A stretch of DNA of 64,000 nucleotides, taken from Eledone cirrhosa (lineage: Eukaryota). The stretch is taken from NCBI GenBank assembly GCA_964016885.1, contig OZ024740.1, positions 387,934,001-387,998,000 of the forward strand, written 5' to 3'. A program made the translations under genes and the position numbers. Shown here piece by piece: positions 33,006-37,284 of this stretch. The notes beneath the pieces were generated by a model, which saw only the letters and a list, made by a program, of their open reading frames with translations, had not been told where the DNA came from and searched no databases. The first letter of the stretch is position 1; each line of letters starts with the position of its first letter.

Positions 33006-33329
33006 TATATATATATATATATATATATATATATATTTATATATATATATTATATATATATTTTTATATATATATATTATATATATATATATATATATAT
33101 ATATATATATATATATATATATATATATATATATATATATATATATATATATATATATATATATATATATATATATATATATATATATATATATATGTAT
33201 ATATATATATGTATATATATATATATATATATATATATTATATATAAATGAAGTAATTCCGTCGGAAAAGTCCAGGAAAAAAGAGTGCTCTATGTAGGTA
33301 ACAGAGCTTAATAGTTATGTAATAAACAA

Positions 33330-33383
33330 CATTTACCAGTGGTTTCTTTAAAGCAAAAAATGTTGCTTTCAATCCTCAGAATG
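33330..33383 (-). ncRNA. Type-I hammerhead ribozyme (family CATT-CTGAGGA)
   Basis: CATT-CTGAGGA-TTGAAAGCAA..TTGCTTTAAA-GAAA-CCACTGG-TA-AATG. Confidence 0.82.
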
Positions 33384-34290
33384 AAAAAGTCCTGGTCTGT
33401 TTATTGAATTTGGATTTTAAAAACAAAAGTGCAATCTATATGAAAGTGAGGCTGTAGAAAGAAGAAGGAAAGGAAAAATAAAATAAAACCACACATGCAA
33501 ACACACACACACACAAAAGCATACATACACACACACACACACACATATATATATATATATATATATATATACATACACTCATATATACACACACACATAT
33601 ACACATATATATGTGTATATAAATACACACATACACATACATATACACATACATACATACGCACATAAAAATCAACACATCCATACATACACATACATAC
33701 ATACAACCACACATATACACATATACATATATATATATATATATATACATACATGCATACACATACACATACATAGCCATACACACATACATATACATAC
33801 ATACATACATGCACACAATCATACCTATATACACACGTACATACATACACATACATAAATGCGTACATATGCATGTACAAAATTAGAAAAATATACACAC
33901 CTCTACATATTCACACACGCAAATAAATATAAGAAAAAAAATATATATAAAATAAAATAATTATACAGTTGACAGCGATACATGCGACTAGTAGATGAAC
34001 AGACACGCGTGGTAAGCAATACACACAAATGCACGTACACATACGTACGAAAAAGTAAATACATACACACACACTCTCACGCATAAATATACATATACAA
34101 ATACATAAACACATACATACACATACACAAATACATACACAAACACGCACACACACACATATACATATATACACACATACATACACACACACATATATAT
34201 ATATATATATATATATATATATATATATATATATATATATATATATATATATATTATTATTATGTAATAAACAACATAAGGCAATTATTC

Positions 34291-34344
34291 CATTTACCAG
34301 TGGTTTCTTAAAAGCAAAAGGTTTTGCTTTCAATCCTCAGAATG
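34291..34344 (-). ncRNA. Type-I hammerhead ribozyme (family CATT-CTGAGGA)
   Basis: Reverse complement of 34436-34489. Confidence 0.85.
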
Positions 34345-34435
34345 AAAAATCCTGGTTTGTTTATTGAATATGGATTCTAAAAACCTAGATTCTAAAAACC
34401 TAGAATCCATATTCAATAAACAAACCAGGATTTTT

Positions 34436-34489
34436 CATTCTGAGGATTGAAAGCAAAACCTTTTGCTTTTAAGAAACCACTGGTAAATG
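34436..34489 (+). ncRNA. Type-I hammerhead ribozyme (family CATT-CTGAGGA)
   Basis: CATT-CTGAGGA-TTGAAAGCAAAA/cc/TTTTGCTTTTAA-GAAA-CCACTGG-TA-AATG. Confidence 0.85.
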
Positions 34490-34983
34490 GAATAATTGCC
34501 TTATGTTGTTTATTACATAATAATAATAATTAAGCTCTGTTGCATACATAGAGCACTCTTTTTTCCTGGACTTTTCCGATGGAATTACTTCATTCATACA
34601 TATATATATATATATATATATATATATATATATATATATATATATATATATATATATATATATATATATAAATACACACACACATACACACAGATATATA
34701 TATATATATATATACATACACACACATATACATACATAGCTATACAATTATACACATACAAATACGTACATATCACAAACACGCACAACCAAATACAAAC
34801 ACACACACACACACACACACACACACACACACACACACACACACACACACACACATATATATATATATATACACACACATATATATGTGTGTGTGTAAAA
34901 CTCAATCTTAGATAATTCATATTAACCTTTTATATACTTTTATATATAGTAGTAATGTAATAAACAACATAAGGCAATTATTC

Positions 34984-35045
34984 CATTCACCAGTGGTTTC
35001 TTAAAAGTAAAAAAGTAAAAAATGTTGCCTTCAATCCTCAGAATG
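34984..35045 (-). ncRNA. Hammerhead copy with GUG at the cleavage triplet, likely inactive
   Basis: Same family; reads ..CCACTGG-TG-AATG and has a duplication in stem II. Confidence 0.7.
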
Positions 35046-35383
35046 AACAAAACCTGGTCTATCTACATATACATATATATACACACACATATATACATAT
35101 ACATATACACATACACATACATACACATACATTTTGGTATGTGAAGAGTAAGGCAAAAAGAATATATGGGGGGGGGGGAGACATAGGAAAAGGTGAAATA
35201 TAAGGGGAGATAAGGGAGAAAAAGAATACAAGAGTACAGAACGTGGATTCTGTAAATAAAAAAAAACCGTAGTGGAAGTAAAGAGCAGGAAAGGAGTTCA
35301 AGGCGGTTGATTTATCATAGGAGTGTCAATCCAGTTACAGATCAGATGTGATTTCAGATGAGGACAGCATCTGAAGATCTCAG

Positions 35384-35821
35384 GAAGCCGGATGAATGCC
35401 CATTGCAGGGTAAATGTAACACCAAATCTGTTGTTTATGAGGCTAAAATAACACCGGTAATCAACAACCAGCCAGCCAGGAGTGAGCGATATGTCGGTAT
35501 GACCCAGGACAGGTTTAAAACCAGATTTTACTCACATGTCGCTTCTTTTAAACACTCCGATAAACGAACATCAACGGCCCTCGCAAGTAAGGTGTGGGAA
35601 TTCAAGGATAGTAACATCCCGTACTCTATCGATTGGTCTATCTTAGACCATTCGAGGGAGTACCAAAGGGGCACAAAGAATTGTTCTTTGTGTACCACAG
35701 AAAAATATAGGATTTTGCTAAACTTAGAGCCACTTCTGCTTGCCTAAACTCAAAGACTGAGATCTTCAGATGTTGTCCTCATCTGAAATCACATCTGATC
35801 TGTAACTGGATTGACACTCCT
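35384..35821 (+). pseudogene. PLE GIY-YIG endonuclease fragment (5'-truncated at the inversion junction, frameshift near 35740)
   Basis: ECPLQGKC..VVYEA..RYVG..FKTRFYSH..SF; CSLC..EK; continues in another frame as LNSKTEIFRCCPH. Confidence 0.88.
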
Positions 35822-36081
35822 ATGATAAATCAACCGCCTTGAACTCCTTCTCTGCTCTTTACTTCTACTACGGTTTTTTTATTTACTGAATCCACGTTCT
35901 GTACTCTTGTATTCTTTTTCTCCCTTATCTCCCCTTATTTCACCTTTTCCTATGTCTTCCCCTCCCCATATATTCTTTTTGCCTTACCCTTCACATACCA
36001 AAATGTATGTGTATGTATGTGTAAGTGTATATGTATATATGTGTGTATATATATGTATATGTAGATAGACCAGGTTTTTTT

Positions 36082-36135
36082 CATTCTGAGGATTGAAGGC
36101 AACATTTTTTACTTTTAAGAAACCACTGGTCAATG
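36082..36135 (+). ncRNA. Type-I hammerhead ribozyme (GUC site)
   Basis: CATT-CTGAGGA-stem II-GAAA-CCACTGG-TC-AATG. Confidence 0.8.
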
Positions 36136-37156
36136 GAATAATTGCCTTATGTTGTTTATTACATTACTACTATATATATGTATATATATGGTTCATATGA
36201 ATTATCTAAGATTGAGTTTTACACACACACATATATGTGTGTGTATATATATATATATATATATATATATATATATATATATATATGTGTGTGTGTGTGT
36301 TTGTATTTGGTTGTGCGTGTTTGTGATATGTACGTATTTGTATGTGTATAATTGTATAGCTATGTATGTATGTGTGTGTGTATGTATATATATATATATG
36401 TGTGTGTGTATGTGTGTGTGTATTTATATATATATATATATATATATATATATATATATATATATATATATATATATGTATGTGTATGTGTGTGTGTATA
36501 TATGCATATGTGTGTGTGTGCGTGTTTGTGTATGTATTTGTGTATGTGTATGTATGTGTTTATGTATTTGTATATGTATATTTATGCGTGAGAGTGTGTG
36601 TATGTATTTACTTTTTGGTACGTATGTGTACGTGCATTTGTGTGTATTGCTTACCACGCGTGTCTGTTCATCTACTAGTCGCATGTATAATTATTTTATT
36701 TTATATATATATTTTTTCTTATATTTATTTGCGTGTGTGAATATGTAGAGGTGTGTATATTTTTCTAATTTTGTACATGCATATGTACGCATTTATGTAT
36801 GTGTATGTATGTACGTGTGTATATAGGTATGATTGTGTGCATGTATGTATGTATGTATATGTATGTGTGTATGGCTATGTATGTGTATGTGTATGCATGT
36901 ATGTATATATATATATATATGTATATATATATATGTGTGTGTGTGTATGTATGCTTTTGTGTGTGTGTGTGTGTGTGTGTGTGTGTCTGTGTGTGTGTGT
37001 GTGTGTGTGTGTGTGTGTGTGTGTGTGTTTGTGTGTGTGTTTGCATGTGTGGTTTTATTTTATTTTTCCTTTCCTTCTTCTTTCTACAGCCTCACTTTCA
37101 TATAGATTGCATTTTTGTTTTAAAATCCAAATTCAATAAACAGACCAGGATTTTTT

Positions 37157-37211
37157 CTTTCTGAGGATTGAGAAGCAAAATTTTTTGCTTTTAAGAAACC
37201 ACTGGTAAATG
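37157..37211 (+). ncRNA. Type-I hammerhead ribozyme (GUA site)
   Basis: CTTT-CTGAGGA-TTGAGAAGCAAAA/tt/TTTTGCTTTTAA-GAAA-CCACTGG-TA-AATG. Confidence 0.78.
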
Positions 37212-37284
37212 GAATAGTTGCCTTATGTTGTTTATTACATAACTATATTATATATATATATATATTATATATATATATATATAT

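What the first reader, a model, noticed from the sequence alone, without database searches (positions are those of the whole stretch)
33245..37247. PLE tail with six hammerheads bounding ~1-kb units built largely of microsatellite: the microsatellites travel inside the element
Seen: same-strand HHR pairs at 36082/37157 (+, 1075 apart) and 33330/34291 (-, 961 apart). Between them both units share the same unique islands (GTGAGAGTGTG..CTTACCACGCGTGTCTGTTCATCTACTAGTCGCATG, GAATATGTAGAGGTG, GGTTTTATTTTATTTTTCC..) separated by (TA)/(TG) runs of different lengths. The microsatellite is therefore copied cargo, not only the target site. Inference: self-cleavage would release a ~1-kb UG/UA-rich RNA that could circularise. 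An element that targets (TA)n while depositing new (TA)n would create its own targets, a feedback loop that could explain the microsatellite load here.
Basis: partly seen in the sequence, partly recalled or inferred. Interest (0 to 1): 0.75.

Follow-up and report, generated by a model that had tools for sequence, protein, structure and literature searches.

The report
Jumping gene carries its own target
This is a Penelope-type jumping gene that lands in TA repeats and carries over a kilobase of such repeats inside itself, where later copies and other elements then land; one of its two self-cutting RNA motifs is likely a disabled relic of such a landing, and the family supplies only an estimated half percent of the genome's repeats, so it does not explain the repeat load.

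Summary
Window 33248-37246 is a mirror-image insertion of a Hydra-clade Penelope-like element (PLE). Its 3' region runs ORF end - microsatellite - hammerhead 1 (HHR1) - 1.05-1.5 kb microsatellite with ordered islands - hammerhead 2 (HHR2) - tail - (TA)n. The cargo is real: one island has 1,438 exact genomic matches, and 32 of 78 position-ordered ends carry at least 100 bp of repeat. HHR1 has an uncleavable GUG site in 30 of 33 copies, is absent from the basal subfamily and sister family, and nests inside HHR2 on a tree: a fixed fossil stub. No circle-junction copy exists (0 versus 636 normal HHR1). Budget: about 0.5% of genomic dinucleotide repeat and 0.2% of (TA)6+ runs; 0 of 60 ordered loci self-nested. 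Penelope copies carrying repeats are published for shrimp; this scan noted Hydra PLEs on other pieces of this genome. Cargo and self-targeting supported; 1-kb circle and 'explains the load' not.

The parts
33006..33246 (.). (TA)n target tract, left flank
33248..33310 (-). [quoted passage not shown]
   Evidence: Same sequence precedes the ORF in full-length copies L061, L063, L177
33311..33400 (-). HHR2 and end of the inverted host arm (C3 33379, GUA 33336-33334); 16-nt deletion after the cut site shortens stem I
33401..34254 (-). Distal microsatellite spacer of the inverted host arm, with islands at 33490, 33912, 34016, 34080
34255..34595 (.). Nested palindromic stub of the young subfamily C: HHR2 on each strand (C3 34340 -, 34440 +, both GUA), leader on the + arm only; sits in the host's internal (TA)n
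   Evidence: Arms 117/117 identical, 6 mismatches in 114 to the host HHR2; 39 other places 100% identical over 180 bp; 5 of 29 of these are stand-alone palindromes in TA runs
34596..34950 (-). Rest of the split (TA)n and proximal spacer of the inverted host arm
   Evidence: 34596-35383 mirrors 36499-35757
34951..35060 (-). HHR1 of the inverted arm (C3 35041, GUG 34990-34988, uncleavable triplet)
35061..35383 (-). Microsatellite, unique 3' UTR and last codons of the ORF on the inverted arm; inversion junction at 35383/35384
35384..35842 (+). 5'-truncated ORF end: linker cysteines and GIY-YIG endonuclease; broken by a frameshift near 35725
   Evidence: 35352-35747 frame; comparison
35843..36003 (+). 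Unique pyrimidine-rich 3' UTR
   Evidence: 1,632 first-look candidates, top 40 at 93-100%
36004..36066 (+). Microsatellite upstream of HHR1 (variable length between copies)
36067..36171 (+). HHR1 plus end sequence: ~105-nt fossil stub of the family's own end (C3 36086; GUC here, GUG in the family)
36172..37040 (+). Microsatellite spacer with ordered unique islands; 36004-37040 is 56% purine-pyrimidine alternation of 20 bp or more, TG 197 versus CA 23
37041..37141 (+). Unique segment before HHR2: polypyrimidine tract with acceptor-like CAG (37087-37089) and TATA-like CATATAGA
   Evidence: CAG in 34 of 36 scored ends; shared with sister family B
37142..37246 (+). HHR2 and element end (C3 37161, GUA 37205-37207)
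37244..37290 (.). (TA)n target tract, right flank

Best explanation
The locus is a 5'-truncated, mirror-image insertion of a protein-coding Hydra-clade Penelope-like element whose 3' untranslated region is mostly microsatellite and is copied with it, and a younger copy of the same family has inserted into that carried TA run; the upstream hammerhead is likely a disabled relic of an earlier self-insertion into a master copy. Mechanism: the element's endonuclease cuts (TA)n (inferred from ends; shown for no Hydra protein). Reverse transcription likely starts at two fixed points behind HHR2 (element end and about 63 nt into the leader), so everything between ORF and HHR2 is copied as a passenger. 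The passenger region has little sequence constraint, changes run lengths by slippage and collects insertions of TA-targeting elements. When an insertion hits a master copy it is inherited by all descendants: HHR1 on the branch to subfamilies A and C, a 50-nt end of an unrelated family in subfamily D. A cleavable hammerhead there would likely separate the ORF from the priming sites, so the surviving master carries G17. The feedback loop is real but small.
For: Full-length units ORF-HHR1-spacer-HHR2-leader at L061, L063, L177; L177 has an open 710-aa ORF with RWK, DKT, YRDD, CxCX5C, no Cys between VVY and YVG, CxxC and CxH, the Hydra features of PMC8557442 section 11. HHR1-HHR2 spacing 1052-1291 in 18 of 26 measurable older copies, 7 longer, 1 shorter. 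Exact counts: end motif 5,592, spacer island 1,438, GUG-type HHR1 636. 71 of 79 ends in 60 position-ordered loci run into a TA/CA tract. Two end points: 31 of 64 HHR2 ends go straight into (TA)n, 22 after the leader, as for the two RT start sites in PMC11167929. Nested stub belongs to another, younger subfamily than its host. 15 inserts in 11 of 38 complete spacers, 14 events in 10 of 37 after removing one duplicated locus, including 3 of 15 young spacers; one from the own family, one from a second Hydra-like family. In the ordered sample 8 events in 7 independent loci, plus one more locus. Subfamily D has a plain (TA)n where HHR1 stands in 3 of 3 copies spanning the site; family B has one hammerhead. 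ORF tree: B, then D, then A+C (95/98). Hammerhead tree: HHR1 is one clade (96/98) inside A/C HHR2 (92/96), with path length about 0.19 to young HHR1 against 0.03 to young HHR2. NUG sites are not cleaved (PMC3138052).
Against: No RNA or enzyme data, so priming, cleavage and selection for G17 are inferred. In D the stretch upstream of the HHR1 site is about 900 bp longer, so the gain of HHR1 came with, or beside, a deletion; a template switch rather than a clean insertion is possible. D is one row in the ORF tree and the hammerhead tree has only 104 columns with 10 of 20 inner forks open. Only one clear self-nested case was found, and it is the one the window was chosen for; a second (L178) lacks its other half within 8 kb. 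The nested arms are 100% identical, which fold-back read artefacts can also give, though the arms end differently and the same form recurs elsewhere.
Confidence: 0.8

Rival explanations
1. Retrozyme-like unit: both hammerheads cut, releasing a ~1-kb UG/UA-rich RNA that circularises and can be copied on its own.
For: Two same-strand type I motifs about 1.1 kb apart; this window's + HHR1 has GUC. Retrozyme circles are known (PMC7229834) and a preprint derives them from pLTRs (10.64898/2026.07.22.740005). One locus holds three tandem ~360-400-bp HHR2 repeats (L069).
Against: G17 in 30 of 33 older (1 GUC, 2 not called) and 15 of 15 young HHR1. The junction a re-inserted circle would leave (HHR2 upstream, HHR1 downstream) has 0 genomic matches against 636 normal HHR1 and 0 of 233 HHR2 cores in held loci, overlaps not removed. 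The unit always lies behind the ORF's 3' UTR when the copy is long enough (29 of 30 loci show HHR1 or its end after it).
Confidence: 0.05
2. HHR1 is kept as an enzyme-only partner: it pairs with HHR2 as a double hammerhead, cuts the GUA site of HHR2 in cis and is itself uncut.
For: PLE hammerheads with a short palindromic helix III need a second copy nearby (PMC4209133). HHR1's stem I 5' strand pairs with HHR2's 3' strand as well as HHR2's own, and helix III pairs 8 of 9 (older) or 7 of 9 (young) positions. Catalytic core letters are unchanged in young HHR1 while the part after the cut site has drifted. The fixed change hits position 17, the one that spares the enzyme half.
Against: Ten unchanged core sites at about 0.19 changes per site has a chance near 0.15 (own arithmetic), so no constraint is shown. 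Young HHR1 has lost one helix III pair. Subfamily D and family B spread without it. The base of stem II is U-A, not the conserved G-C, and a kilobase of UA/UG repeat could fold between the two. HHR cleavage was not needed for insertion in vitro (PMC11167929).
Confidence: 0.12
3. The microsatellite block lies in a retained spliceosomal intron ending at the CAG 71 nt before HHR2, so mature RNA lacks it and unspliced RNA is the template.
For: Polypyrimidine tract plus CAG in 34 of 36 scored ends, kept in family B although the upstream islands differ. The Drosophila Penelope intron ends at the 5' side of its hammerhead (PMC4209133); PLEs retain introns (PMC8557442).
Against: The donor-like GTATGT at 36004 is absent in subfamilies C and D; GTATGT is everywhere in such repeats. 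A short ~80-nt intron fits equally. No spliced joint in three contig sets of unknown kind.
Confidence: 0.15
4. Local duplication or assembly artefact; the microsatellites are only target sites.
For: The locus is a nested palindrome in low-complexity DNA.
Against: Islands occur genome-wide in the same order; host arms differ by 0.6-3.3% and end differently.
Confidence: 0.01

Closest known systems
Hydra clade of Penelope-like elements, incl. Hydra-1_Obim (Craig et al. 2021, PMC8557442; section 11, passages and supplement passages read)
   Same: RT then C-terminal GIY-YIG, RWK, DKT, CxCX5C, no CCHH, CxxC/CxH, hammerhead with ACCA-N-UGGU helix III, (TA)n insertion, inverted 5'-truncated copy and one-sided tail. 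24 of the first 40 residues equal Hydra-1_Obim (read by eye).
   Different: Unit about 4.2 kb against 'generally <3 kb' (Hydra-1_Obim 2,507 bp), because of a 1.9-kb microsatellite-rich 3' region; second, G17 hammerhead inside it.
Penelope copies carrying SSRs in penaeid shrimp (Yuan et al. 2021, PMC7878876; passages read)
   Same: Near-identical Penelope copies with syntenic internal SSRs that moved with the element and then elongated; SSR expansion linked to TEs.
   Different: The passages read do not describe (TA)n targeting, insertion into the carried repeat, fossil stubs fixed in masters or hammerheads.
Metazoan non-LTR retrozymes (Cervera and de la Pena 2020, PMC7229834, passages; preprint 10.64898/2026.07.22.740005, parts 1-2 of 5)
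   Same: Type I hammerheads in same-strand repeat, link to PLEs.
   Different: Those are non-coding tandem monomers of about 170-400 nt expressed as circles; here the segment is part of a coding element, not tandem, and its first site is uncleavable.
Microsatellite-targeting and microsatellite-seeding retroelements (review PMC3812793; passages read)
   Same: Waldo, Mino, Kibi, Koshi, Dong target repeats; L1 and Alu seed new repeats.
   Different: Here one element both targets (TA)n and carries 5-10 mature (TA)6+ runs.

Membership tests
Hydra-clade PLE | Single ORF, RT followed by C-terminal GIY-YIG endonuclease | tested here: met
   710-aa ORF of L177, YRDD at 346, VVY/YVG at 574/594; recognised by motif, Pfam gave no hit on the window fragment
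Hydra-clade PLE | RWK motif and DKT in place of DKG | tested here: met
   positions 37 and 114
Hydra-clade PLE | CxCX5C linker; CCHH absent; CxxC and CxH around conserved E and N | tested here: met
   555, no Cys between 574 and 594, 658, 689
Hydra-clade PLE | Hammerhead motif in the pLTR | tested here: met
   HHR2 CUGANGA...GAAA CCACUGG UA, GUA in 57 of 64; activity untested
Hydra-clade PLE | Insertion into (TA)n | tested here: met
   71 of 79 ends
Hydra-clade PLE | Partial tandem or inverted copies and one-sided tail | tested here: met
Hydra-clade PLE | RT tree placement among published Hydra proteins | not tested
   Published sequences were only seen as text; compared by eye
Non-LTR retrozyme (for the 1-kb segment) | Non-coding, independent unit | tested here: not met
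   Segment is the 3' region of a coding element
Non-LTR retrozyme (for the 1-kb segment) | Tandem monomers each with a cleavable hammerhead | tested here: not met
   HHR1 G17; no junction form
Non-LTR retrozyme (for the 1-kb segment) | Expressed as circular RNA | not testable with these tools
   No run on record as RNA was listed

The most novel reading that the evidence does not exclude
Several TA-targeting Hydra families in this genome each carry kilobases of their own target (this family, its sister family B, and an unrelated family at window 6420-10760 with a 2.5-kb block), and the carried tracts are then filled by other TA-targeting elements. Summed over all families and over time, this niche construction is a main source of the genome's roughly 8% dinucleotide repeat, and master copies keep a readable stratigraphy of past insertions, one of which now serves as an enzyme-only helper ribozyme.
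Probability: 0.15. Interest if true: 0.7.

Novelty: new variant of a known kind. Interest (0 to 1): 0.4.

Why it matters
Why some invertebrate genomes are very rich in dinucleotide repeats is open, and 'transposons carry them' has mostly been argued from overlap. This locus gives a worked case with numbers: cargo, self-targeting and inheritance of insertions by master copies are shown from sequence, and the present share of one family is small. It also warns that paired hammerheads about 1 kb apart need not mark a circular RNA, and offers a natural pair (with and without HHR1) for testing whether PLE hammerheads cut as dimers.

Tried and rejected
Rfam scan: only microRNA-model matches to simple repeats below gathering score among the 150 rows shown. 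Pfam: no family for the four PLE fragments among 7 proteins. Minimum-energy folding: no monomeric hammerhead. Sequencing runs: no RNA holder listed; three contig sets of unknown kind were laid and gave no spliced or go-back joint; depth is far higher over HHR2 and leader than over the ORF but is no copy number, so it was not used. A loose repeat mask gave 15% of random DNA but 5% in shuffled DNA and was replaced by a strict one (0% in shuffled). Single intron starting at 36004: donor not conserved. Candidates for further self-nesting: L221 and L225 rejected, L178 unresolved, L081 is an A-to-B chimera without a TA run at the joint. One gap in L209 lies between two separate copies and was left out of the insert count; L217/L219 and two C1 loci are duplicates and were counted once; one end (L221 minus) was left out of the 78 measured. 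In the tree the row named A1_L080 is locus L073. Paper searches listed no paper on a PLE inserting into its own carried microsatellite; the library lacks most subscription journals, and the preprint's supplements were closed.
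Full report
What is there. The six hammerhead motifs, the two spacings and the four islands are in the sequence as described. Self-BLAST shows that 33248-35383 is a reverse copy of the 3' part of 35384-37246, interrupted by a 341-bp piece at 34255-34595. The internal (TA)n of the + arm (36425, 26 units) corresponds to two runs on the minus arm, one on each side of that piece.

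The family. Searches of the own genome (3.0 Gb; probably a cephalopod by likeness to Hydra-1_Obim, an inference I did not pursue) with the end and with an island gave 1,119 and 1,782 first-look candidates. Landmark maps of 60 loci and 20 longer stretches show one order: ORF, unique 3' UTR, microsatellite, HHR1, islands J1-J2-I1-I2-I3-I4-I6, HHR2, end, optional leader. Full-length copies exist (L061, L063), and L177 has an open 710-aa ORF with every Hydra feature listed in PMC8557442 section 11. The sequence found at one end only (33248-33310) is the start of the 5' leader. Of 64 HHR2 ends, 31 run straight into (TA)n, 22 do so after the leader, 2 continue into a body and 9 were classed otherwise. 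This matches the one-sided tail of PLEs and the two internal RT start sites shown in vitro for an Anolis element (PMC11167929, parts 1-2 of 4 read).

Cargo. HHR1-HHR2 spacing is 1052-1291 in 18 of 26 measurable older copies; 7 are longer through insertions and 1 shorter. Exact genome counts are 5,592 for a 23-mer at the end, 1,438 for an 18-mer island deep in the spacer, 97 for its subfamily-A form and 636 for GUG-type HHR1, with 0 for the backward controls. To avoid choosing by similarity I took the first 60 loci by position among the end matches (79 ends). 71 of 79 ends run into a TA/CA tract; 32 of 78 measured ends carry at least 100 bp of strict repeat, mean 227 bp per end. 38 of 79 are short stubs whose match begins between -61 and +43 of the hammerhead core, none between -144 and -61. 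Young copies identical over 180 unique bases differ in run lengths (HHR1 to acceptor 1,038-1,384 in 12 uninterrupted young spacers). Copied cargo is therefore established.

The cargo as target. The nested piece has 39 other genomic places identical over 180 bp, its arms are 117/117 identical and it differs from the host end at 6 of 114 positions, while the host arms differ by 0.6-3.3%. 5 of 29 such young loci are stand-alone palindromic stubs in TA runs. It is thus a later insertion of a younger subfamily (C) into the carried (TA)n of an older one (A). Among 38 complete spacers chosen by similarity, 11 hold 15 inserts (14 events in 10 of 37 after removing a duplicated locus); one is this self-insertion, one a stub of a second Hydra-like family, the others did not match my small library, and nearly all have TA runs at their edges. 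Three of 15 young spacers are already hit. In the ordered sample, 8 events lie in 7 independent loci and one more locus has stacked inserts, out of about 29 loci with cargo. No locus of the 60 is clearly nested in its own family.

HHR1. Its triplet is GUG in 30 of 33 older copies (1 GUC, this window; 2 not called) and has G17 in 15 of 15 young ones; HHR2 is GUA in 57 of 64. NUG is not cleaved (PMC3138052, passages). HHR1 with its end sequence is about 105 nt, flanked by repeats on both sides, like a free stub. Subfamily D, found in the ordered sample, has a plain (TA)n at that place in 3 of 3 copies that span it, and instead carries a 50-nt end of an unrelated repeat family, 76% like copies in this window. 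Sister family B (ORF about 80% identical) has its own microsatellite block and one hammerhead. The ORF tree orders B, D, A+C (95/98; D is one row), and the hammerhead tree places HHR1 as one clade (96/98) within A/C HHR2 (92/96), changing about six times faster. Gain by self-insertion into a master, then decay, is the simplest reading; the accompanying 900-bp difference from D leaves a template switch open. A circle cut at both sites and re-inserted would join HHR2's upstream to HHR1's downstream: 0 matches in the genome (control 2) and 0 of 233 cores in held loci. An enzyme-only helper role for HHR1 fits the pairing and the dimer model (PMC4209133, passages) but is not supported beyond chance.

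Budget. Twenty evenly chosen 10-kb stretches have 8.3% (standard error 1.3) strict repeat and 1.58 (TA)6+ runs per kb. The family's 227 bp and 1.84 runs per end times 5,592 ends give 1.27 Mb and about 10,300 runs, or 0.5% and 0.2%. Exact matching undercounts, and decayed copies are invisible, but a hundredfold gap remains. A second, distant family in the same window (ORF to 7507, 2.5-kb block, end at 10760) also carries repeats: 20 of 30 near-identical loci show its inner island e5 and 651 places match the motif at the block's edge. That adds perhaps as much again. A third PLE at 2994-6140 has no block. So the loop exists but these families do not explain the load; the sum over all families was not measurable here.

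Against the literature. The clade, its (TA)n preference and its architecture are published (PMC8557442). Penelope copies that carry syntenic SSRs are published for shrimp (PMC7878876, passages). Repeat-targeting and repeat-seeding elements are reviewed in PMC3812793 (passages). My searches listed nothing on insertion into the carried target or on a fossil hammerhead fixed in a master. Earlier notes of this scan reached the Hydra assignment on other pieces of this genome; the short lines shown do not mention the cargo or HHR1.

Verdict. A new variant of a known kind: a Hydra PLE with a kilobase-scale carried target, one clear self-insertion and a likely disabled internal hammerhead. Shown: anatomy, counts, subfamily order, G17, absence of junction copies. 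Inferred: cutting, priming, origin of HHR1, selection. Interest 0.4.

Noticed in passing
window 6420-10760: Second, distant Hydra-like family: ORF end (CxCX5C), 2.5-kb TG-rich microsatellite block, 550-bp unique end, (TA)n. Young (99% copies), same two end types; its short stubs were hit at 4 places in 200 kb of random DNA. Hammerhead-like core near 10704 does not fit the usual fold.
   Followed up: partly
window 2994-6140: Near full-length third PLE (RWK, DK, YRDD, CNC..CPL) without a microsatellite block.
   Followed up: no
window 36004-37040, L177, L202, window 7690-10215: The carried repeat is TG-rich on the sense strand in every family seen (TG:CA 197:23, 265:24, 324:31, 424:9); only two or three independent origins, so no test.
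   Followed up: partly
L081 (G000:C6:65073699-65076899): Chimera: subfamily A spacer joined directly to family B's end without a TA run, likely a template switch.
   Followed up: no
L069 4761-6050: Three tandem ~360-400-bp repeats of the HHR2 end followed by a D-like end; retrozyme-like in layout, seen once.
   Followed up: no
ordered sample L196-L255: Short stubs begin between -61 and +43 of the HHR2 core, 19 of 38 at -61 to -43, beside a TATA-like box at -62 and self-complementary TTTTAAAA; suggests a short RNA with its 5' end there.
   Followed up: partly
L178 3340-4200: A young copy's 3' end abuts the internal repeat of an inverted D-type arm; the rest of that arm was not found within 8 kb upstream.
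   Followed up: yes
window 38108-41390: Broken Helitron-like Rep/PIF1 helicase gene (PF05970) with a 69-bp tandem repeat at its start.
   Followed up: no
window 13411 (-) and 21262 (+): Two further hammerhead motifs of other families (CUGAUGA, long stem II).
   Followed up: no
window 31954-33012: Tandem 580-bp duplication (97.5%) of a repeat flanked by (TA)n, directly left of the locus.
   Followed up: no
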